NCBI RefSeq assembly: GCF_009914755.1
Contig: NC_060927.1
DNA length: 64,000 bases
Direction: 5' to 3' (one strand)
Origin: the human T2T-CHM13v2.0 reference genome, Homo sapiens
The notes under the pieces: generated by a model
Databases searched by the model: none
Seen by the model: the letters and a program-made list of their open reading frames with translations, nothing else
What the model was told of the DNA's origin: nothing
Shown here: positions 42,321 to 64,000 of the stretch, one piece after another
Layout of the letters: each line of letters starts with the position of its first letter
How positions within the stretch are numbered: position 1 is the first letter of the stretch
Position numbers and translations under genes: made by a program

Positions 42321-43639
42321 TGCCAATATCCCTTTTGACACAACCCAATTGGTTCCACATCCACCCTCCCCCGTGGCCTTGTGCCTGAGGTCTGGCCCCA
42401 TTGGAGGGTCCCGTTCTCCCCTGTGCAGTGACTGGCTAAGGCTTAGTTAAGTGGTGTAGTTGTGCCCAATCAGACGCTGAGGAAGGGCAGATGGGCGGCT
42501 TCTGGGAAGGGCACAGTCACAGTGCTGGGAGGAGGCTACCTGGCTCTGCGGCACTGCAGGTGGCAAGTGATTTGGTGGCTTCACGTTCCGGGAATCCAGG
42601 ACCCACTGGTTCACAACCAATTGCATTCATGCGACTGACTCCCAAAGCCGGGCTCTGGGGGATAGGGGGACACTAAGAGCTGGTGCCAAGAGCGCCATTT
42701 CAACCCTCTCCTTTCCCAGCAAACAGGCGCCCAGGCTGAAATGGAGTAAAGATCCTGGGTCTCAAGACTCAGGCCTATATTGGTGGCTGCCATTCACTGA
42801 CATTTCCAAACATGAGCCTGTTCTAGAAACTGTCTGTCAAACACTGAACAACCGCCGAATAACAAGGCCCTGGAGTGGCTCATCCCATGTAAGGGCAGGG
42901 ACAAAGCTCACTGACATGTGTCCACTCTGTAAAACAGAATGGGCTCACGGGACCAACACAAACACCCATGAAGGGGCAGACAGGGAGAGTCGGGACCTCC
43001 AAAGACAAGTGGTGCTTGAATTGGCTTGAGGAGGCTGCCCCATCTCTGAGGTGGAGGAGGGATCAAGATGCCCGACTCCTGAGGTGAGGGAAACAGGCCT
43101 CTGCCAACCAGGAAGCATGGCGGCCCTCCCCGCTCTTCACCTTCTCACCTTCTCCGGGTGGGCCAGGGCATCTGCTGCTGTCCGAGTGGAGGTGCCCACG
43201 GGTCTGTAGTGTCTTGGCTACAGCAGGACGGCCAGCGCTGGTGGGAAGGGCTGTATACGTGGGCAGCACTGGCCTACATGGCATTCTTGTGCCTGTGAAT
43301 GCAGGGCAGTCCATGGACACAGCTAGGGAGGTGGGCAGCACCACTGGGCAAGGAGGGCCCTTTTCTCTGCAAGCCCAAGCCCAGGCCAGGGCACCAGGAG
43401 TGGCTGCTGGCCCTTGGCTTGGCACCATGGGTACACCCTGCATGTGAAAGCAGCCCTAGTGTCCCTGTAGGTGGGCACCACCAGCAGCAGTTCTCAAAAA
43501 TGGCCCAGCCTTCAGCTACAAGCTTTGGTGCCTGGCCTCCAGCCAAGCCCCTCACCCTGGGCTCCTGATCTCACCGCTCCACCTTCAGTGACCTCACCAA
43601 GTGCTTCAGAAAAGGGAAGCCCATTGCGGTACCTATGTA

Positions 43640-50156: not shown

Positions 50157-52146
50157 CTGCAGTAGCAGCCAGAGAAATTCTAATTTAGCCAGTAACCTCA
50201 GTGTAATTCCGATGAACTTGTGAAGCCTCTTTTTTTCATGCGTATGAAAGAGAAAAGCCTCTTTTCTCATGTAACACATATTCAAGTTCTTGAAGTCAGC
50301 ATCACTCTCTGGCCCACAAATTGGCCAATCCCATGTATGGGATCACAGAAAACACACCAGTAGGATGGGCTTTATGTCAGAAGCACCGGGTTTCAGGGTT
50401 CCCAGCAGCTACCTGCCCTGGTAACAATGCAGATTTGGGTCCCAGCCTAAGGTTTTGACTCAGAAGCTGGGTGAGGGGTGGGTGGCAGAAATCATGGCTA
50501 GCAAGCTCAAGCTGGGTGAGGGTCAGGGGTGGAGTGACGGGCGAGTGTGACAGAAATCATGATTAGCAAGCTCAGATGTGGCTCTGGTGAAGCGGAAGGT
50601 GGTCTGCAGTTACAGCTGTGTGGGAGGAGCACGGTGCCAAATTATCAGCTTGGTCCCAGCTAGAAACAAAGACTCCGCCAAGAAAATCAAATCCCCATTC
50701 CAGAAAGGCTCCCGCTCACACAACAGGAGACATGTGAGGGAGTCTATGACACAGGCCATTAACTGCATGAGCTAACCGTGGGGTGGGTGGATGTCAGTTC
50801 AAAAGGGGAAACAAAGGTGTAATGTCTGTTTCTCAAATGATCTTTTGAGCCCTGCTTTCTCTGCACATCTGGGTTTCAGAGCAAAATTTCCCAAAACAGA
50901 AGTTAAAGGACTTTGAAAGGAGATATTTTGAGACTGCAAATTACTTCCCATGGAGAGTGAGGTGCCTATAGAAGCCAGAGGCTGGCTTTCCAGCCATCCC
51001 CAGGCACACACTCATTCTGACCGCTTCTGGAACAGGAAGCTAGTCATGTCTGATTAACTACAGCCACCTCCCAAATCTGGGAGTTGGAATCCTCACATAC
51101 CAACCAACGCTACAGGCCATGAGGTTCCACAGGTGGCCAGAAAGAGCTGGATGCTAACACAAAATGACCAAGCAAAACTGACCCACCTCCCTGGGTCTGG
51201 GAAATGTCGTCAGAGGCAGCAAGCCCTCATCAGGGCTGCTCATCGCCTCTGTCCTTTCATGTTCTATCAGTGGACACTGATATTTTCTCCAAGTTATGGA
51301 TACCCCAAATATACACGAAATCACCTAGTAACTAAACCAAGAGATCCTTCTGCAGAACCCCCAGGCTTCAGCATGGAGTGGACGCACCCATCTAGATGGT
51401 TCCTCCAGGCTGTGGGGCTCAGGTCCATGGGTCTGGGCATCAGTCCTATGCTTCCTAGGGTTCCCTGTGCCAGGTTCATGCCAATCTTGGCTACTTAACT
51501 CCCCATTTCCTGCATTTCTAATTGCTCTTGTACAGCAAAACCTCTTTTTAACCTCCTTTGTTGATATAACTTTTAATGTCTGTTATATTACCTGTGTGTA
51601 ATTTAAATTCATAGTGCCCAACACTTACATCACATTGCACGCCAGGCACTGTTCTAAACACTATGCACATTTGATTTACTCCTCATAACCACCCTATGAG
51701 AGACATACCATTATGATTTTAAAGAAAAAACAGAGGCACATAAAGGTTGAGAAACTTGCACCAGGTTATAGCAGGTTTGAGCCCAGGCCGTCTGGCTCCA
51801 GAGCTGGCTCCTAACCTACAGGCTGCCCGGCCCCTACCCTGATGTTGGATCTAGACGTTTCATTTTTGTACTATAATAATATCACCCAACTATCCACTGG
51901 GGTCACCTGTGCTTTGAGATTCAGATTCAACTGGATCACACTTCTAATCCATGAGATCTTGCGAGTATCTCTGAATTATTGGTGTGGATCCAATTTTGTC
52001 TTGTCACACCTGGCTCAGATTTTCTGCTTCTGCTAAATCTCTGAAACCATGGCAGCCTGGCTCCAGATACACCAGGTTAACCCTATCTTGATCTGTATGC
52101 ACACATTTTAGCAAGATATTAAAGAGTGCTTAAAACTTTAAGAACT

Positions 52147-52812
<666 letters not shown>

Positions 52813-52907
52813 TTAAAGAAAGGCTTCCAAAGGGAACAAGAATAAGAAAATGTGGAAACCACAGTGAGACAGTTGGCAAAATCACAAACGCTAGAGCAGC
52901 TGAAACT

Positions 52908-53384
52908 CAGATGCGGAGACACTTCCTTTAAACACAAATGATTTAGACCAGGTCTCCTACTCTCCTAGCTAAAAGAGGCAGGTGAATCCTTGAAGTCACA
53001 ACTTCCTCAGAATCCTCAGGCAGGACTCCCTGGACTCCAGAGTCAGAGAGAGCAACAGGACAGTTTATTCCCCCCTTGTCCATGGCAAGCCACAGGAGCC
53101 TGGGGGAGAAGGTGTCTTCCTAGAACAGAAGCTCCTTGGGGGATGTATTTAATGCCATATAATATTTTTTGTTTGTTCATTTTTGTTTGTTTTTACAACT
53201 TTGTCACATTCAATATTTTTAATAAGTAAAAAACAGGCATGTGCTTTAAATATTATCCAACTTATTACCAACTGCACCCCATTAAAAGGTGTGACCTGGA
53301 GGAAAGAGAATGGAAGGAGCCCCTTGGTGGTTCATTGCTGTGTGTGCCCCAGATGTGTTCTGATGGCCTCTTGTCACCAACTGG
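52908..53384. repeat. Inverted repeat, left arm (uninterrupted)
   Basis: Its reverse complement matches 63224-63539 (outer part) and 56470-56639 (inner part). Confidence 0.95.
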
Positions 53385-54398
53385 CTGGTGATGGAGAGCT
53401 GCTGAAGAGCACCTCCAACAAAGAGCATGGCAAGAACCAGAAACCTCGATCTGCAAGGGACTGCAGTTTACTAAACACATAAAAGGGAGCAGAAACATTA
53501 ATAAATTATTCAGGAACAAGAAAGGTTAAAATAAGCCATATCTCCTCCACTGGATGAAGAGAAAAAGCTAGTAACAGATGTTGCTTAAAAGGCTGAATTG
53601 AATGGACGGTTTTTTGAAACATCCTGATATGAGCATGGAGAACAGTGGGCTGGGGGTGTCCTGGGGACATCAACCAAGGGGACTAGAGCAGTGGCCTGAG
53701 GCTGAGACAGGGGCAGTATTTTGACACTTGTAAAGTAGAGGTATAATTATAAATAAAAAGAATCAAAGTCCCTAACATCAAAAGCAAACTATGACTAATC
53801 TTAAAGAAGTAATATAATTATATACGAAAGCTACAATTACTTCTGGAATGACCATCAACTATGTGTGTTATGGCAACATAGGTAAGAGGGCAACAAAGTG
53901 AGGAAGACATGGGAATGATGTTCCCAGATGGGAGGACCAAAAAGACAATGAAGGTGACACCAATTCTGAGAAAGGGGGAAATTTTCATATTTTTGCAAAT
54001 AATAATGTAAAAATAACATGTAATCAGTTTGCCTCCAAATCACAGGGCAAAGAATGAAGTTTCTTTTTAAAATGACTTTGGCATGGCTCCTTTCTAGTTT
54101 CACTGTAACTAGATCTACAGGTGTGATGTTATTTTGCAAACAGAAATGCGAAGAGGAGATCTTCCACCCAGGTTCTGCTGTAATATGGCAGTGAGCTGTT
54201 TCAGATGCCAGCGAGGTCTACAATCTTCTTGTGTATTATCCTCAGCCCCATGATACTGACACATTCAGTGATGTTACTAGGACATTGTCCCAATTGTTCA
54301 GGTCATCTAGATGACCAAGAGCATCTGGTCTGGAGGAGACATTTCCTGGACAAGACTTACATAGCATGACTTCTTTTTTAAAACAATATTTAAATTAC

Positions 54399-54693
54399 TT
54401 TTTTTTTGAGACAGGGTTTCACTCTGTCACCTAGGCTGGAGTGGAGTGCAGTGGCACAATCACAGCTCACTGCAGCCTGGACCTTCCGGGATCAGGTGAT
54501 CCTCCCACCTCAGCCTTCTGAGTAGCTGGGAGGCTGGAGTGTGCCACTACACCCAGCTAATTTTTTGCATATTTTGTAGAGATGGGGTTTCACCATGTTG
54601 CCCAGGCTTGTCTTGAACTCCTGGTTCAAGTGATCTGCCTGCCTCGGCCTTCCAAAGCACTGGGATTACAGGTGTGAGCCCCCGCACAGGGCC
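54399..54693 (-). mobile_element. AluJ
   Basis: Reverse dimer with AluJ-type divergence. Confidence 0.9.
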
Positions 54694-56469
54694 CACAGCA
54701 TCACTTCTTCAGGAAGGCTCTCCCTCCTCCTTGCCTGGGAGGAAGGGTGCCAAGTCCTTCAGGAATAACTACTTTCTGGTCTGGAAGCCCTTGGAGCCAA
54801 GGAGGGCGGCAGCATTGTTCTTTCACAAGCCAGAGAACCCCCTATGTTGTCATACAGGTCACCTGGGGCCCTTGGGAGATAAGACCCAGAGAGGTCTGTG
54901 ACCATCCAAGGCCAAGATGACCATCTAGCCAGCCCTCATCTTTGATCTGAGGTTCCATGTTGATAGCTAGAGAGCCAGGGCTCAGGTTCAGGCCAGAAGA
55001 GGAGGCGTGGCCAGGCCAGTGGACACCAAGCACAAGTGGCTGTTCCAAAGAAACCCCCGCAGGCTCCTTCAGTGAAAGCCATGGCTAGGTGACATTTACA
55101 GATCCAGGAATTGAAGCCTTGACAGTTTGGTTAGATCAAGGAATGACACAAAAGTTTAAAAGCCCAAAGAATAGGAATAAACACTCTAGAAATCAAAGAG
55201 TCTCTAAAAGGACCCTGAACTGGGGTGGCACAGTGGTGGCCATCTGAGAAAAGATGCCTTGGTGATCAGAGGTAATCCAGTGTCCAGCCTCCCACTGCAG
55301 TCCCGACTCATGGAGTATGAGGGGACACAATTTCACTGTCGCATGAGAAAGAAACTCAGTTTAGAAAGTTAAAGGATGAAGTAAGAGCCTACTAAATGAA
55401 ATGCAGGAGACAGTCCACTGCCCACATCAGTTTCAACACAACTTAGTAAATATTACTCTTAACTATAAAGGGAGAACAACCTTTAATCTAAGAAAACACT
55501 GCCAGTGGCCACAAGGAAAGTGAAAGTGGGATGAGTAGGAGCAGCTGCCAAAGGGTGAGCTCCTTCTCTGCCCAGAAAAGCTCTGCACCCACTTTCTGCA
55601 CACCTAGGAAGGTAAAGGAGGCACCCAGGCATCAAAGGACCCCTGGTGGTGGCAGAGGGGATTGGTTCCATTCTTAAGAAACACTAAGGCCATCACCAAG
55701 GTGAAAACAGATCCTTATGAAATGCAGCCACAACTGCAGACCGCAGAGAAAGTATAAATGTTTCCCATCACCTTTACAATCTTTCCCAGGGCAGTTTTCC
55801 CCACATCTGAACACTGTATGGCCCTTTGATAAATGCAAATATCTATATCTTCTATAATGTCATTTAAAATTTCAATATTACTATTATGAGTAAAACAAAA
55901 TTGATAATTACAACATTATGATTTTTAAAACTCTATATCCCCTCACTGTACAAGAGATTACCATGTACCCTTCCCCCCAGAGCAGGGCCCTGTTCCTGGC
56001 CAGTTGAGAAGGGCTACCCCTGGGTGATGACGGCTGTGAGTCATCAGAATTGCAGGCACTAGGCACCCCTTCTATAGAGCCTGGGTAAAGCTGGAGCCAG
56101 GGATGGTTGACTTGACTATGCTTGATTTTTGTGTAGGAACAACACAGTAAGTGTTAGGCAGGGATTCTAGCCTTTATTCACTTGACATCATTTTCCCTCA
56201 GAAAAGTTAATTTTTACTCATTCCCACCTAGAAACCTCAACAAGCAGGATTAATTACTGCTTCTTCCCAACACCTTTCATTTCACTTTAATTTTCCATTA
56301 CCTATATCCCTTCCTGAGTGGCAGTCCCTGTAACCAATACTGATCACTAAATACAGGTTGATGAAAACATCATTGAACATTCCTCACTGCTATGCTACAG
56401 GATCCTGAGCACACACGGCAGCCAGTCAATATTTTCGCAAATCTAGAACTCAAGTGACACAATGCTGTC

Positions 56470-56639
56470 CCAGTTGGTGACAAAAGGCCATCAAAACACA
56501 TCTTGGGATACATACAGCACTGAACTACCAACAGACTGTCTTTCTTTTTCCTCCAGGTTACATATTTTAATCGGGTACTGTTAGTAATTAATTGGATAAT
56601 ATTTAAAGCATATGTCTTTTATTAAAAATATTGAATGTG
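56470..56639. repeat. Inverted repeat, right arm inner part (5' of L1)
   Basis: Reverse complement of 53205-53384, ~80% identity by eye (shared blocks tgctttaaatattatccaa and ttgtcaccaactgg). Confidence 0.9.
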
Positions 56640-58160
56640 CTTTTGCAATTGGAGAACTTAGAAGAAGTGAGGAGTGAGCCCTGAACCTGAAAATGGCAAA
56701 TAGAAGGAAGGACTAACTTGCAGCTTCCACTCAGGCAAACAGAGCAGTGTGTGGGGGCCCACATCGTGAACTTTTGCTCCAAGAACTACTGCAGGAACAT
56801 ACCAGGAAAGCCAAGAGAATCCACAGACCCTTTAAAGGAGATGGACTGCCTCCAGGCTCTGTGGGACAGCCAGGAACTGTGAGTCTGCTTGCTTTCTCAG
56901 CTGGGAGGCATGTAGCCTAGAGAAAGTTCTCAGCCCTGGAAATAAACTCAGCGCTGTTGTGGGGGCACGGTGGGAGGGAGACTGGCCTTTTGGGCTGTGG
57001 GCTGCATAGGAGCTGGGTGAGGGCTGTGGCTGCCAGCTTTCCCCAACTTCCCTGATGACCTGTGTGATACAGCAGAGGCAAGGTTGTTTAACACCCCCAA
57101 AAGATCACACTAGCTCACCAGCAATGGATCCAAACCAAGATCAAATCTCTGAATTGCCAGAAAAAGAATTCAGAAGGTTGACTATTAAGCCAATCAAGGA
57201 GGCACCAGAGAAAGGCGAAGTCCAACTTAAATAAATAAAAAACAAAATGATGCAGGATATGAATGGAAAAATCTCCAGTGAAATAGATAGCATAAATAAA
57301 AAACCATCACAACTTCTGGAAATTAAGGATGCACTTAGAGAACTGCAAAATGCACTGGAAGTCTCAGCAACAGAATCGAACCAACAGAAGACAGAATTTC
57401 AGAGCTCAAAGACAAGGCTTTCAAATTAACCCCATCTGACAAAGAAAAAGAATTTAAAAAAATTAACAAAGCCTCCGAGAAGTTTGGGATTATGTTAAAC
57501 AACCAAACCTAAGAATAATTGGTGTTCTCAAGGAAGAAGAGAAATCTAAAAGTTTGGAAAACATATTTGAGGGAATAATTGAGGAAAACTTCTCCAGCAT
57601 TGCTAGAAATCTAACATCCAAATACAAGAAGCTCAAAGAACACCTGGGAAATACATCACAAAAAGATTATCACTTAGGGACATAGTCATCAGGCTATCTA
57701 AGGTCAAGATGAAGGAAAGAATCTTAAGAGCTGGGAGGCAAATACATCAGGTAACCTACAAAGGAACCTATCAGATTAACCTATCAGATTAACAGCAGAT
57801 TTCTCATCAGAAACCCTACAAGCTAGAAGGGATTGGGGTCCTATCTTTAGCCTCCTTAAACAAAACAATTGGCCAAGAATTTTGTGTCTACCGAAACTAA
57901 GCTTCATAAATGAAGGAAAGATACAGTCTTTTTCAGACAAACAAATGCTGAGAGAATTCGCCACTACCAAGCCAGCACTATAAAAACTGCTAAAAGGAGC
58001 TCTAAATCTTGAAACAAATCCTCAAAATACACCAAAATAGAACCTCCTTAAAGTATAAATCTCACAGGACCTATAAAACACCACCACAATGAAAAAAACA
58101 AGGCATTCAGGCAACAAATAGCATGTTGAATAGAATAGTACCTCACATCTCAATACTAAC

Positions 58161-58526
58161 TGTATTAATCCGTTCTCACGCTGCTATGAAGAAGTGCCCA
58201 AGACTGGATAATTTACAAAGAAAAGAGGTTTAATTAACTCACATTTACGCATGGCTCAGGAAACATACAATCATGGCGGAAGGGGAAGCAAATACGTCCT
58301 TCTTCACATGGTGGCAGGAGAGAGAAGCGCCGAGCAAAGGGGTACAAGCCCCTTATAAAACCATCAGATCTCATGAGAACTCACCCGCCACCATGAGAAG
58401 AACAGCATGAGGGTAACCGCCCCCATGATTAAAACAGCTCCCACTGGGCCCTCCCATGACACATGGGGATTATGGAAACTACAATTCAAGATGAGATCTG
58501 GGCCAGGACATGGTCAACCCATGTCA
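58161..58526 (-). mobile_element. THE1-type MaLR solo LTR inside the L1
   Basis: Ends tgtatta...atgtca, typical THE1 body, 5-bp TSD ctaac/ctaat. Confidence 0.9.
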
Positions 58527-59545
58527 CTAATGTTGAATGTAAATGGCCTAAATGCTTCACTTAAAAGATACAGAATGGCAGAAGGGAAAAGAATTCACCA
58601 ACCAAGTATCTGCTGCTGCCTTCAGGAGACTCACCTGACACATAAGAACTCACATAAACTTAAGGTAAAGGGGTGGAAAAAGATATTCCATGAAAATGGA
58701 CACCAAAAGCAAGCAGGAGTAGCCAGTCTTATATCAGACAAAACAAACTTTAAAACAACAACAGTTAAAAAGGACAAACAGGGACATGATATAATGATAA
58801 AAGAAATAGTCCAACCAGAAAATATCACAATCTTAAATATATATGCACCTAACACTAGAGCTCCCAAATTTATAAAACAATTACTCCTAGACCTAAGAAA
58901 TGAAATAGACAGCAACACGATAATAGTGGGGGACTTCAATACTCCACTGACAGCACTAGACAGGTCATTAAGACAGAAAGTCAACAAAGAAACAACAGAC
59001 TTAAACTATACCCTAGAACAAATGGACTTAACAGATATTTACAGAACATTCTACTCACAACTGCAGAATATACATTCTACTCATAAGCACATGGAACATT
59101 CTCCAAGATAGACCATACAACGGGCCACAAAACAAGTCTCAACAAATATAAGAAAATCGAAATTATGGCAAGTACTCTCTCAGACCACAGTGGAATAAAA
59201 CTGGAAATCAACTCCAAAAGAAACCCTTGAAACCCTGCAAATACATGGAAATTAAATAGCCTGCTCCCAAATGATCATTGGGTCAACAATGAAATCAAGA
59301 TGGAAATTAAAAAATTATTTGAACTGAATAATAGTGACACGACCTATCAAAACCTCTGGGATACAGCAAAGGCAGTGCGGATACAGCAAAGGTGGTGCTA
59401 AGAAGAACATTCATGGCATTAAATGCCTACGTCACAAAGTCTGAAAGAGCACAAATAGACAATCTAAGGTCACATCTCAAGGAGCTAGACAAACAAGAAC
59501 AAACCAAACCCAAACCCAACAGAAGAAAAGAAATAACCAAGATCA

Positions 59546-59942
<397 letters not shown>

Positions 59943-60479
59943 CTAATGGATTAAGAAGAGAGAAGATCCAAATAAGCTTAATTAGAAACGAAACGGGAGA
60001 TATTACAACCAATACCAAAGAAATACAAAAGATCATTCAGGCTACTATGAACACCTTTATGTGCATAAACTAGGAAACCTAGAGGAGACAGGTAAATTCC
60101 TGGAAATATACAACCCTCCTAGTTTAAACGAGGGAGAAATAGAAACTCTGAACAGACCAATAACAAGCAGTGAGATTGAAATGGTAATTAAAATGTTACC
60201 AACAAAAAAAAGAATCCAGGACTAGATGGATTCACAGCTGAATTCTATCAGACATTCAAAGAACTGGTAACAATCCTATTGACATTATTCCAAAAGATAG
60301 AGAAGGAGGGAATCCTCCCTAAATCATTCTATGAAGCCAGTATCATCCTAAGACCAAAACCAGGAAAGGACATAAAAAAAGAAAACTACAGACCAATATC
60401 CCTGATGAACATAGATGCAAAAATCCTCAACAAAATAGTAGCTAACGGAATACAACAGCATATCAAAAAGATAATCCAT

Positions 60480-60783
60480 GGCCGGGTGCGGTGGCTCATG
60501 TCTGTAATCCCAGCACTTTGGGAGGCCAAGGCGGGCAGATCACGAGGTCAGGAGATCCAGACCATCCTGGCTAACATGGTGAAACACTGTCTCTACTAAA
60601 AATACAAAAAAATTAGCTGGGCGTGGTGGCAGGTGCCTGTAGTCCCAGCTACTTAGGAGGCTGACACAGGAGAATGGCGTGAACATGGGAGGCAGAGCTT
60701 GCAGTGAGCCGAGACTGTGCCACTGCACTCCAGCCTGGGCAACAGAGCGAGACTCTGTCTCAAAAAAAAAAAAAAAAAAAAAA
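60480..60783 (+). mobile_element. Alu (AluY/Sc-like) inside L1 ORF2
   Basis: Full dimer with A tail; TSD aaaaagataatcca/aaaaagatactcca. Confidence 0.92.
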
Positions 60784-60805
60784 GATACTCCACCATGATC
60801 AAGTG

Positions 60806-60984
60806 GGTTCCATACCAGGGATGCAGGGATGGTTTAACATCTGCAAGTCAATAAATGTGATATACCACATAAACCAAATAAAAAACAAAAATCCCTGGTT
60901 TCATACCTGGGATGCAGGGATGATTTAACATTCACAAGTCAATAAATGTGATACACCACATAAACAGAATTAAAAACAAAAATC
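60806..60984 (+). repeat. 91-bp-period tandem duplication in L1 ORF2
   Basis: ggttccataccagggatgcaggga...aaacaaaaatc at 60806 recurs, diverged, at 60897. Confidence 0.9.
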
Positions 60985-63223
60985 ACATGATCATCTCAGT
61001 AGATGCAGAAAAAACATTTGACAAAATCCAGCGTCACTTTATTATTAAAACCCTCAGCAAAATCAGCATAGAAGGGACATACCCTAAGGTAATAAAAGCC
61101 ATCCATGACAAACCACAGCCAACATTTTACTGAAAAGGGAAAAGTTGAAGGCATTACCCCTGGAACAAGACAAGGATGCCCACTTTCACTATTTCTATTC
61201 AGCATAGTACTGGAAGTCCTAGCCAGAGCAATCAGACAAGAGAAAGAAAGAAAGGGCATCCAAATCGGTAAAGAGGAAATCAAACTGCTGCTGTTTGCTG
61301 ATGACACGATCATATACCTAAAAAACCCTAAAGACTCATCCAAAAAGTTCCTAGAACTGGTACATGAATTCGGCAAAGTTTCCAGATACAAAATTAATGT
61401 ACACAAATCAGTAGCCCTGCTATATACCAACAGCGACCAAGCTGAGAATCAAATCAAGAACTCAACTTCTTTTAAAATAGCTTCAAAAAAAAAAAGAAAA
61501 GTAAAATACTTAGGAATATACCTAACCAAGGAGGTGAAAGACCTCTACAAGGAAAACTACAAAACACTGCTGAAAGAAATCACAGATGACACAAACAAAT
61601 GGAAACACATCCCATGCTCATGGATGGGTAGAATCAATATTGTGAAAATGACCATACCACCAAAAGCAATCTACAAATTCAATGCAATTTCCATCAAAAT
61701 AGTACCATCATTCTTCACAGAACTACAAAAAACAATCCTAAAATTCATATGGAATGAAAAAAGAGCCTGCATAGCCAAAGCAAGACTAAGCAAAAAGAAC
61801 AAATCTTGAGGCATACATTACCCGACTTCAAACTATAAGGCCATCGTCACCAAAACAGCATGGTACTGGCATAAAAACAAGCATATAGACCAATCAAATA
61901 GAACACAGAATCCAGAAATAAAGCCAAATACTTACAGTCAACTGATTTTCGACAAAGCAAACAAAAACAAAGTGGGGAAGGACACCTTATTCAACAAATG
62001 GTGGTCGGATAATTGGTTAGCCACATGTAGAAGAATGAGACTGGATCTTCATCTCTCACTTTATACAAAAATCAACTCAAGATTAATCAAAGACTTAAAT
62101 CTAAGACCTGAAACCATAAAGATTCTAGAAGATAACATCAGAAAAACCCTTCTAGACACTAGCTTAGGCAAAGACTTCATGACCAAGAACCCAAAAGCAA
62201 ATGCAACAAAAATAAAGATAAATAGATGGGACTTAATTAAACTAAAAAGCTTCTGCACAGCAAAAGAAACAATCAGCAGAGTTAACAGACAACCCACAGA
62301 GTGGGAGAAAATCTTCATAATCTATATATACAACCAACAAAGGACTAATATCCAGAATCTACAAAGAATTCAAATCAGCAAGAAAAAAAACAATCCCATC
62401 AAAAAGTAGGCTAAGGACATGAACAGACAATTCTCAAAATAAGATGTACAAATGGACAACAAGCATATGAAAAAATGCTCAACATCATTAATGATCAGGG
62501 AAATGCAAACCAAAACCACAATGCAATATCTCCTACAAGAATGGCCATAATCAAAAAATAAAAAGTAATAAATGTTGGCATGAATACAGTGAAAAGGGAA
62601 TACTTTTACACTGTTGGTGGGAATGTAAACTAGTACAACCACTATAGAAAACAGTGTGGAGATTCCTTAAATAACTAAAAATAGATCCACCCCAATCCAG
62701 CAATCCCACTACTAGGTATCTCCCCAGAGGAAAAGAAATTATTATACGAAAAAGATACTTGTAAATGCATGTTTATAGCAGCACAATTTGCAACTGCATA
62801 AATATGGAACCAGCCCAAATGCCCATCAACCAACGAGTGGATAAAGAAAATGTGGTGTATATACCATGGAATACTACTCAGCCATAAAAAGAAACGAAAT
62901 AATGGCATCCGCAGCGACCTGGATGGAACTGGAGACCACTGGAGACATTAAGTAAGGTAACTCAGGAATGGAAAACCAAACATTGTATGTCCTCACTCAT
63001 AACTGGGAGCTAAACTATGAGGAGGCAAAGGTGTAAGAATGACTTTGGGGACATGGGGGAAAGGATGGGGGGGAAGGATGGGAGGGGAGTGAGGGATAAA
63101 AGACTACACATTGGGTACAGTGTAGTGCTCAGGTGATGGGTGCACTAAAATCTCAGTAATTACCACTAAAGAACTTATTTATGTAACCAAACACCACCTG
63201 TCCCCCAAAAACATATTGAAATA

Positions 63224-63539
63224 AAAAAAATTAAATGTGACAAAGTTCTAAAACAAACAATACAACCAACCAAACAAAAATATTATACAACATTAAATTC
63301 ATCCCCCAAGGAGCTTCTGTTCTAGGAAGACACCCTTCTCCCCCAGGCTCCTGTGGCTTGCCATGGACAAGGGGGGAATAAACTGTCCTGTTGCTCTCTC
63401 TGACTCTGGAGTCCAGGGAGTCCTGCCTGAGGATTCTGAGGAAGTTGTGATTTCAAGGATTCACCTGCCTCTTTTTAGCTAGGAGAGTAGGAGACCTGGT
63501 TTAAATCATTTTTGTTTGAAGGAAGTGCCTCTGCTTCTG
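63224..63539. repeat. Inverted repeat, right arm outer part (3' of L1)
   Basis: Reverse complement of 52908-53220. The core 63300-63500 has only 3 differences from 52947-53145. Confidence 0.95.
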
Positions 63540-63589
63540 GCTGATGGCCACTCCTCTCTTCCTGAAAGCAATCTGAGATAAAATACTTT

Positions 63590-63733
63590 AAAAAGAAGGA
63601 AGGAAAGAAGAAAGGAGGGAGAGGAGCAAGGAAGCAAAAGAGAAAGCAAGAAGGAAGGAAGAAGGAAGGGAAATAAAGAGGAAGAAAGGAGGAAAGGGGA
63701 AGGGGAAGGGAAAGGAAAGGGAAGGAAGGAAAG
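63590..63733. repeat. GA-rich polypurine tract
   Basis: (GAAG)/(GGAAA)-type run, almost pure purine. Confidence 0.9.
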
Positions 63734-63960
63734 ACATCTTGATAACTGAGGGAGTCTTGGCTTTGCATATGGAGCCAGCAACACCTGATCTGAGAAACTT
63801 AAATGTCCCCTCAAAATAGAGAAAAAGGGGACCTCACTGTGTGCTGGGTCTCTGCAGGTGGGCTCATTCTCATGCAAAGGTTTCTCTTCCTTGGTAGGAA
63901 TTCAGGCTGCTCCATGGTGTCTGAGAAAACGGGCTTTTTGAAAGTTGTGTGTAGGTGTGT

Positions 63961-63962
<2 letters not shown>

Positions 63963-64000
<38 letters not shown>
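63963..64000. repeat. (TG)n microsatellite running off the window
   Basis: At least 18 uninterrupted TG units. Confidence 0.95.

What the first reader, a model, noticed from the sequence alone, without database searches (positions are those of the whole stretch)
52908..63539. Ancient inverted repeat with a recently homogenised ~200-bp core bracketing a 10-kb L1-containing segment of the last ANO10 intron
Seen: 52947-53145 is the reverse complement of 63300-63500 with only 3 differences (two 1-bp homopolymer indels and one G/A), including ~117 bp of perfect identity. Homology continues on both sides at only ~75-85% with sharp boundaries. The arms are not Alu or L1. The repeat predates the heavily decayed L1PB-type element inserted in it, so neutral decay should have left the whole arm at ~80%. 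Inference: the core was recently overwritten by intrachromatid gene conversion, with or without recurrent NAHR inversion of the ~10.1-kb spacer, which would flip the L1 relative to ANO10. Alternatively the identity is selectively maintained.
Basis: partly seen in the sequence, partly recalled or inferred. Interest (0 to 1): 0.85.

Follow-up and report, generated by a model that had tools for sequence, protein, structure and literature searches.

The report
Old inverted repeat with gene-converted core
Two short mirror-image DNA copies in the last intron of the human ANO10 gene are old and decayed except for a 200-base stretch kept almost identical, most likely by one copy overwriting the other, an ordinary and well-known process.

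Summary
52947-53145 is the reverse complement of 63300-63500 with 3 differences; 117 bases are perfect, the longest exact repeat in the window.

The anatomy needs one correction. Each arm is about 480 bp, not 320. The right arm is split by a plus-strand L1 (56640-63220) with a 19-bp target-site duplication. Its inner piece lies at 56470-56639. Before the L1 arrived the spacer was 3.1 kb.

The arms are single-locus in the genome. Outside the core they differ by K2P 0.156, or 0.078 per arm. That matches the L1's own post-insertion divergence of about 0.087. The core is at 0.005.

Best reading (about 0.75): non-allelic gene conversion between the arms. The 199-bp tract fits the published mean tract length of 250 bp. 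The decisive test, ortholog trees, could not be run here.

A published table carries a DGV inversion call, hg38 chr3:43375564-43386094, 10,531 bp. It maps onto this repeat. No other callset I could search has it, so inversion is suggested, not shown.

This is a new instance of a known process. Interest is low to moderate.

The parts
52908..52946 (+). Left arm, outer flank (diverged)
   Evidence: 6 mismatches in 39 columns vs 63539-63501; K2P 0.175
52947..53145 (+). Left arm, homogenised core (199 bp)
   Evidence: 3 differences vs the reverse complement of 63300-63500; K2P 0.005; 117 bp perfect at 52996-53112; GC 54%, no CpG
53146..53223 (+). Left arm, inner T-rich low-complexity flank (diverged); 53205-53223 is the unoccupied L1 target site
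   Evidence: About 15 differences in about 80 columns, K2P 0.145, GC 18%. 53205-53223 matches both target-site duplication copies
53224..53384 (+). Left arm, inner part B (diverged)
   Evidence: 53205-53384 vs 56639-56470: 79% identity, E=2e-38; K2P 0.159
53385..56469 (.). Original 3.1-kb spacer, single-copy. Holds one Alu (about 54393-54693) and the RefSeq silencer 55485-55779
   Evidence: No homology between the spacer halves above shuffles. Genome search finds only self. No Pfam hit in any stop-to-stop frame tested from this region. The silencer comes from the hub annotation
56470..56639 (-). Right arm, inner part B', cut off from the rest of the arm by the L1; 56621-56639 is the 5' target-site duplication copy
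   Evidence: The reverse complement of 56621-56639 equals 53205-53223 at 19 of 19 positions
56640..63220 (+). Near full-length, decayed L1 inserted inside the right arm, with two Alus inside it (about 59539-59840 and 60479-60783)
   Evidence: Pfam hits for L1 ORF1, endonuclease and RT in 4 of 7 plus-strand frame pieces. The 3' A-rich tail ends at the target-site duplication. Nearest genomic copies are 80-85% identical, terminal branch about 0.087.
63221..63299 (-). Right arm, inner flank of A'; 63221-63239 is the 3' target-site duplication copy
   Evidence: The reverse complement of 63221-63239 matches 53205-53223 at 16 of 19 positions; alignment
63300..63500 (-). Right arm, homogenised core (201 bp)
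63501..63539 (-). Right arm, outer flank (diverged)
   Evidence: No homology beyond it above shuffles

Best explanation
An inverted duplication specific to this locus arose in what is now the last ANO10 intron, before a now-decayed L1 inserted into its right arm. The arms were about 480 bp and the spacer 3.1 kb.

Outside a 199-bp core, the arms have drifted apart at the neutral rate for about as long as the L1 has been there. The core has been overwritten from one arm to the other by non-allelic gene conversion, either within one chromatid or between sister chromatids. This is the non-crossover outcome of recombination between the arms. The last event was recent relative to the age of the repeat: about 3% of the flank divergence, with a Poisson upper bound near 18%.

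I think the core is most likely the remnant of continuous concerted evolution, not a one-off event between sequences that were already 84% alike. It is the only stretch still long and complex enough to pair. On the inner side it is bounded by an indel-prone T-rich tract and the L1 break. On the outer side it ends 39 bp short of the end of homology, where heteroduplex cannot extend.

Crossover resolution of the same intermediates would invert the 10.5-kb segment between the cores.

Shown: the anatomy, the order of events, the divergence contrast, single-locus status, and the existence of a database inversion call.
Inferred: conversion as the cause, continuity over time, and the reality of the inversion.
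For: 1. The repeat predates the L1. The left-arm site 53205-53223 matches both sides of the L1, 19 of 19 and 16 of 19 positions, i.e. a target-site duplication.
2. Non-core K2P is 0.156 over 265 sites, 0.078 per arm. The L1's terminal branch, estimated against 8 related copies, is about 0.087. The core is 0.005, 1 substitution in 199 sites.
3. The contrast is not chance: Fisher p=2e-7, binomial 7e-16.
4. The remaining differences look young and neutral: two homopolymer indels and one transition.
5. The 199-bp tract fits the published estimate of a mean tract of 250 bp (CI 63-1000). The same paper reports that conversion slows as copies diverge, until they 'escape' (10.1101/135152, passages).
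6. No sign of function in the arms. No Rfam match reaches threshold. No Pfam hit in any of the 13 stop-to-stop frames tested in the arms and spacer. The hub table annotates no functional element in the arms. The core has no CpG.
7. The arms are not a dispersed repeat family. Three of three genome searches find only self and partner, whereas the L1 3' end gives 15,723 candidates.
8. A DGV inversion call, hg38 chr3:43375564-43386094, 10,531 bp, maps to window positions about 52876-63406. The mapping uses the ANO10 3' end as anchor, offset 15,312. If real, it shows the arms still recombine.
Against: No ortholog or population sequence could be examined. The signature that defines conversion, paralogs clustering within species for the core only, is therefore untested.

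At the published average rate, 2.5e-7 per site per generation, the equilibrium divergence is about 4.5%. A core at 0.5% needs either a lucky recent event or a locally higher rate.

Recombination between sequences about 16% diverged is strongly suppressed (recalled knowledge). A single late event is therefore unlikely, and the continuity model is my inference.

The arms hold no exact PRDM9 13-mer, only two 1-mismatch sites in the core.

The inversion call appears only under 'dgv' in the table searched. It is absent from the T2T callset supplement (text held may be cut) and from the 2026 ultralong-read supplement. Near-identical cores can also mislead short-read callers.
Confidence: 0.75

Rival explanations
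1. Both cores are kept by purifying selection. Either each is a functional element, or they are selected as a pair because they form a roughly 200-bp double-stranded RNA stem in the ANO10 pre-mRNA, looping out 10 kb of intron.
For: Both arms lie in the same intron and would be co-transcribed. The predicted core duplex is -431.5 kcal/mol, with one A-C mismatch and two single-base bulges. Core GC of 54% stands out from its flanks.
Against: This needs near-absolute constraint at 198 of 199 sites in two paralogs over about 0.16 substitutions per site of neutral time. Yet two indels are tolerated. No Rfam family matches, no ORF or Pfam hit, and no RefSeq functional element lies in the arms (hub table). 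The core has no CpG and looks like ordinary intronic sequence. Selection for pairing alone would not keep the two copies identical without conversion.
Confidence: 0.07
2. A single replication-based template switch (MMBIR/FoSTeS type), or one homeologous repair of a double-strand break, copied 200 bp from one arm to the other once. There is no ongoing exchange and no inversion.
For: One contiguous tract with sharp ends. A 145-bp tract that is at least 97% purine, prone to unusual DNA structure, lies 51 bp outside the right arm and could stall forks or break. The inversion is absent from the long-read callsets I could search.
Against: It cannot be told apart from conversion in one genome. It would have had to start between arms already about 16% diverged, which is disfavoured (recalled knowledge). 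If the DGV inversion call is real, exchange between the arms is not a one-off.
Confidence: 0.1
3. The near-identity is an assembly or polishing artefact of T2T-CHM13.
For: None from any call.
Against: The arms (about 320 bp) and the whole 10.6-kb structure are shorter than typical long reads, so they should be spanned (inference). An hg38-based inversion call of matching size and place implies the same repeat in hg38. The three remaining differences show the arms were not collapsed onto each other.
Confidence: 0.02
4. On the origin of the repeat only: the arms are the long terminal inverted repeats of an ancient DNA transposon, or two insertions of one repeat family in opposite orientation.
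For: Both arms begin with CAG at their outer ends, as many hAT and Tigger ends do (recalled).
Against: There are no other copies in the genome, although a family of this age would be easy to find. By my reading, no convincing target-site duplication flanks the outer ends: the 8 bases on either side match at 1 of 8, or 5 of 8 after a 1-base shift. No transposase domain in any of the 13 frames tested in the arms and spacer. This would not explain the core anyway.
Confidence: 0.06

Closest known systems
Non-allelic (interlocus) gene conversion between small duplicates in human introns (Harpak et al., 10.1101/135152)
   Same: Short tracts, mean 250 bp, erase divergence between nearby paralogs. Conversion slows as the copies diverge until they escape. 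The estimates were made on neutral intronic sequence (passages).
   Different: Here the duplicate is a non-genic inverted repeat of about 480 bp, and only one 199-bp patch remains. The primate divergence patterns used in that paper to call tracts could not be examined here.
Human polymorphic inversions mediated by inverted repeats via NAHR (Giner-Delgado et al. 2019, PMC6748972; Aguado et al. 2014, PMC3961182)
   Same: Inverted repeats at both ends of an invertible segment. Recurrence and gene conversion between the repeats are discussed (passages of PMC6748972; PMC3961182 seen only in the search listing).
   Different: The validated set has repeats more than 90% identical and 654 bp to 24.2 kb long. 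Here the alignable outer arm is 320 bp at 92%, with only about 200 bp of high identity. The inversion rests on one unattributed DGV row.
Arm-to-arm gene conversion in large Y and X chromosome palindromes
   Same: Conversion within one chromosome between inverted arms keeps them near-identical, with rare inversion of the spacer. A reference to Hallast et al. 2013 was seen in the passages; the rest is recalled.
   Different: Those arms are kilobases to megabases long, more than 99% identical throughout, and carry genes. Here most of the arm has escaped and only a small non-coding core persists.
Inversions by recombination between inverted Alu or L1 copies (recalled, not checked in any call)
   Same: Inverted homology of about 300 bp can mediate inversions of kilobases.
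   Different: The arms here are not transposable elements and occur only at this locus.

Membership tests
Non-allelic gene conversion tract | Paralogous copies whose flanking sequence shows an older divergence | tested here: met
   Non-core K2P 0.156 over 265 sites. The repeat predates the L1, shown by the target-site duplication
Non-allelic gene conversion tract | One contiguous tract of much lower divergence, tens to about 1000 bp long, with abrupt ends | tested here: met
   199 bp with K2P 0.005. The first flank differences fall at 52946 and 53146. Fisher p=2e-7
Non-allelic gene conversion tract | Phylogenetic discordance: within the tract, paralogs of one species cluster together; outside it, orthologs cluster | not testable with these tools
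   No primate genomes are held; the own genome 'has no relatives here'
Non-allelic gene conversion tract | GC-biased outcome | tested here: inconclusive
   Core GC is 54% against 38%, 18% and 45% in the non-core parts. Without an outgroup the direction of change is unknown
Inverted-repeat-mediated (NAHR) polymorphic inversion | Inverted repeats spanning both breakpoints | tested here: met
   The DGV call maps to window positions about 52876-63406; the arms lie at 52908-53223 and 63221-63539. The mapping uses one anchor and may be off by tens of bases
Inverted-repeat-mediated (NAHR) polymorphic inversion | Both orientations observed in people by a method that spans the repeats | tested here: inconclusive
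   One 'dgv' row with no study given. No matching row from gnomAD v4, 1KGP, Ebert or Porubsky in the same table. 0 hits in two other callset supplements
Segmental duplication | At least 1 kb at 90% identity or more | tested here: not met
   The arms are about 480 bp. Only 320 bp reach 92% identity
DNA transposon with terminal inverted repeats | Target-site duplication at the outer ends, a transposase remnant, and other copies in the genome | tested here: not met
   No convincing flanking duplication (my reading). No Pfam hit in any of 13 frames tested. Only this locus in the genome

The most novel reading that the evidence does not exclude
The 200-bp core is a self-sustaining recombination module. 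It has stayed in concerted evolution for as long as the L1 has been there (tens of millions of years on my recalled rates), while the rest of the repeat escaped. It still flips a 10.5-kb ANO10 intron segment in living people; that segment holds an L1 and a RefSeq silencer. This would make it one of the shortest non-transposon repeats known to drive a human inversion. The flipped allele would place the L1 in sense orientation within ANO10, a recessive ataxia gene.
Probability: 0.2. Interest if true: 0.55.

Novelty: new member of a known kind. Interest (0 to 1): 0.3.

Why it matters
It is a clean, internally dated example of how gene conversion can keep a small patch of an old repeat young. The L1 inside the arm supplies a clock on the spot.

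If the database inversion is real, about 200 bp of identity is enough for inversion by homologous recombination in humans. That is below the 654 bp to 24.2 kb range of repeats in the validated set.

The invertible segment lies in ANO10, the gene for recessive spinocerebellar ataxia 10 (gene label). It contains a RefSeq silencer and a full-length L1 that is currently antisense to the gene. The flipped allele could in principle affect the transcript; this is inference and was not tested.

Nothing here changes what is known about the mechanism.

Tried and rejected
- **RNA families.** The left side and spacer (52700-56700) gave 4 matches, all inside the Alu at 54406-54690. The right side (63100-64000) gave 2 matches far below threshold, 16.8 and 16.4 bits against gathering scores of 50 and 45. 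I treat these as chance.
- **Coding potential.** No Pfam hit in any of 13 stop-to-stop frames from the arms and spacer.
- **Dispersed repeat family.** Rejected; three genome searches found only self and partner.
- **Larger palindrome.** Rejected. The local score between the spacer halves was 15 against a shuffled maximum of 16. The outer flanks scored 10 against 14.
- **PRDM9 hotspot motif** (13-mer recalled from memory). 0 exact sites in the three arm pieces, and 2 sites with one mismatch in the core. Not informative.
- **Transposon target-site duplication at the outer ends.** Not convincing (my reading).
- **A first whole-window BLAST with a 94% identity filter** printed nothing, because the single alignment covering arm and flanks averages 92%. 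I replaced it with an exact-word scan.
- **Literature.** 0 papers hold ANO10 + inversion + inverted repeat. 25 papers hold ANO10 + inversion; of the 15 listed, none concerns this locus by its title. The coordinate strings gave 0 hits and 1 irrelevant hit.
- **Closed or unavailable sources.**
  - The earlier-findings tool was not open.
  - PMC9563103 and PMC7415573 are not held.
  - The paper reader closed, before I could look in the 1000 Genomes phase 3 supplements. The study behind the DGV row is therefore unknown, and those supplements may bear on the inversion claim.
Full report

Yes. The repeat finder reports arms 52971-53112 and 63334-63475 at 99% complementarity, flanked by weaker collinear pieces. 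BLAST joins them into one inverted match, 52908-53223 vs 63539-63221, at 91.9% over 320 columns, E=5e-127.

My alignment has 321 columns and 24 differences. Only 3 differences fall in the core, 52947-53145 vs 63500-63300:
- an A-run indel at 63476;
- a G/A difference at 52995/63451;
- a G-run indel at 63335.

The other 21 fall in the 120 flank columns: 6 in the outer 39 bp and 15 in the inner stretch of about 80 columns.

The contrast is not chance. Fisher's test gives p=2e-7. The probability of 3 or fewer differences in 201 columns at 20% divergence is 7e-16. The perfect stretch, 52996-53112, is 117 bp. It is the longest exact repeat of either orientation in the whole window; the next is a 55-bp Alu-Alu match.

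**2. Anatomy, with one correction**

The left arm does not stop at 53223. 53205-53384 matches 56639-56470 in inverted orientation at 79% identity, E=2e-38.

Between 56640 and 63220 lies a plus-strand L1.
- Of 7 plus-strand frame pieces, 4 hit L1 ORF1, endonuclease or reverse transcriptase in Pfam.
- Two Alus sit inside it.
- Its A-rich 3' end abuts the right arm at 63221.

The left-arm site 53205-53223 matches the reverse complement of 56621-56639 at 19 of 19 positions. It matches the reverse complement of 63221-63239 at 16 of 19. That is the target-site duplication of an L1 that inserted into the right arm.

So the original structure was two arms of about 480 bp, 52908-53384 and 56470-56639 plus 63221-63539, around a 3.1-kb spacer (53385-56469). 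The repeat is older than the L1. No homology above shuffled controls exists deeper in the spacer or outside the arms.

**3. What the arms are**

Genome searches with the arm, the inner arm plus left spacer, and the right spacer each return only the query itself and its partner arm. The same tool finds 15,723 candidates for the L1 3' end. A repeat family of this age would have been found, so this is a local inverted duplication specific to this locus.

There is no sign of function in the arms.
- No Rfam match reaches threshold.
- No Pfam domain in any of 13 stop-to-stop frames from the arms and spacer.
- No convincing transposon-type duplication at the outer ends (my reading).

By the hub's annotation, the whole structure lies in the last intron of the selected ANO10 transcript. 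The L1 is antisense to the gene. The only RefSeq functional element inside is a silencer at 55485-55779, in the spacer.

**4. Dating from inside the locus**

| Segment | Sites compared | K2P distance between arms |
|---|---|---|
| Outer flank | 39 | 0.175 |
| Inner T-rich flank | 76 | 0.145 |
| Part B | 169 | 0.159 |
| All non-core | 265 | 0.156 (0.078 per arm) |
| Core | 199 | 0.005 (one substitution) |

Eight related L1 3' ends were fetched, the top eight of the 40 candidates scored. They give a mean distance of 0.155 to the window's copy and 0.137 among themselves. Under a star-like history, the window copy's terminal branch is about 0.087. This is rough and depends on the star assumption.

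The non-core parts of the arms have therefore diverged for about as long as the L1 has been in place. Either the duplication happened shortly before the insertion, or the whole arm was still being homogenised until about then.

At the non-core rate, about 28 substitutions were expected in the core. One is seen. That is about 3% of the flank divergence, with a Poisson upper bound near 18%. Translating this into years needs a rate from memory. With flanks of roughly 50-60 million years, the last homogenisation would be roughly 2 million years ago, at most about 10. I did not test the 'L1PB' subfamily label.

**5. Mechanism**

The pattern is what non-allelic gene conversion leaves: a single sharp-edged tract of very low divergence inside old paralogs.

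The published estimate for human intronic duplicates is a mean tract of 250 bp (CI 63-1000) at 2.5e-7 per site per generation. Conversion slows as copies diverge, until they escape (10.1101/135152, abstract and passages). The 199-bp core fits that tract length.

I favour continuous concerted evolution of a shrinking core over a single late event, because exchange between sequences already about 16% diverged is strongly disfavoured (recalled knowledge, not checked). The boundaries make sense under this view.
- The inner edge coincides with an 18%-GC, T-rich, indel-prone tract, and just beyond it the L1 break.
- The outer edge lies 39 bp from the end of homology.

Against this reading:
- The published average rate predicts an equilibrium divergence near 4.5%. 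A core at 0.5% needs a recent event or a locally higher rate.
- The arms hold no exact PRDM9 motif.
- The defining phylogenetic test could not be run, because no primate genomes are available here.

**6. The inversion part**

Supplementary file 2 of PMC12229492 compiles inversions from gnomAD v4, DGV (release 2020-02-25), 1KGP, Ebert et al. and Porubsky et al. (passages). It has one row, 3_43375564_43386094: 10,531 bp, dataset 'dgv', intragenic in ANO10.

The same table gives the ANO10 start as hg38 43365848, which corresponds to window position 43160. The offset is therefore 15,312. The call maps to window positions about 52876-63406, against arms at 52908-53223 and 63221-63539. The size lies between the inner (9,997 bp) and outer (10,632 bp) spans of the repeat. 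The mapping rests on one anchor and may be off by tens of bases.

This is an independent hint that the arms recombine. It is weak, for these reasons:
- The source study is not given. The paper's own table lists 22 DGV sources.
- No row starting 43374-43376 or ending 43385-43387 comes from the other four datasets.
- The gnomAD rows for ANO10 on the one page I read lie elsewhere in the gene.
- The T2T-based callset supplement has no entry at chr3 43.37-43.40 Mb (170,342 characters held, possibly cut; the callset is on CHM13 v1.0).
- The 2026 ultralong-read study of repeat-flanked inversions has 0 hits for ANO10 or these coordinates in 4.4 million characters of supplements.
- Near-identical 200-bp cores could also produce false inversion signals from short reads (inference).

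I put the chance that the inversion truly segregates at a little under one half.

**7. Rivals**

- **Selection on both cores.** The arms would form a roughly 200-bp RNA stem in the pre-mRNA (-431.5 kcal/mol). But identity at 198 of 199 sites in two paralogs over this time span would need ultraconserved-level constraint. No annotation or model supports that, and the remaining differences include two indels.
- **One-off template switch.** This cannot be separated from conversion in a single genome. A 145-bp purine tract lies 51 bp outside the right arm and could stall forks or break.
- **Assembly artefact.** Very unlikely.

**8. Comparison with what is known, and novelty**

The process is known: interlocus gene conversion, concerted evolution of inverted repeats, and inversion by recombination between inverted repeats.

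The locus is not a segmental duplication, because it is too short. It is not a transposon. It falls below the repeat lengths in the validated human inversion set, 654 bp to 24.2 kb (PMC6748972, passage). No paper I could search discusses this locus.

It is a new, neatly dated member of a known kind.

**Verdict.** Gene conversion is the best explanation, at about 0.75. Inversion is suggested but unproven. Interest is 0.3.

Noticed in passing
window 63590-63734: A 145-bp tract that is at least 97% purine on the plus strand, a degenerate GAAG/GGAA repeat, lies 51 bp outside the right arm. Such tracts can form unusual DNA structures and might seed breaks that start exchange; this is speculation.
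   Followed up: partly
window 53205-53223 vs 56621-56639: The unoccupied L1 target site in the left arm and the 5' target-site duplication copy are identical at 19 of 19 positions, although the surrounding arm part B is only 76-79% identical. Probably chance.
   Followed up: no
window 52995 / 63451: In the ANO10-sense RNA, the single substitution between the cores would give an A-C mismatch in an otherwise near-perfect stem of about 200 bp. This is my reading. That A-C mismatches are favoured ADAR editing sites is recalled, not checked. No editing data were examined.
   Followed up: no
window 60806-61008: A 91-bp unit is tandemly duplicated, about 2 copies at 82-88% match, inside the L1 just after the second internal Alu.
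   Followed up: no
window 52132-52763: Two Alus in tandem, about 81% identical to each other, end about 145 bp before the left arm. An inverted Alu lies in the spacer at about 54393-54693. Together these give further, weaker inverted pairs around the same segment.
   Followed up: no
window 55485-55779: The RefSeq-annotated silencer (hub table) lies inside the segment that would be flipped by an inversion between the arms.
   Followed up: no
window 63946-64000: A (TG)n microsatellite of about 27 copies runs to the end of the window.
   Followed up: no
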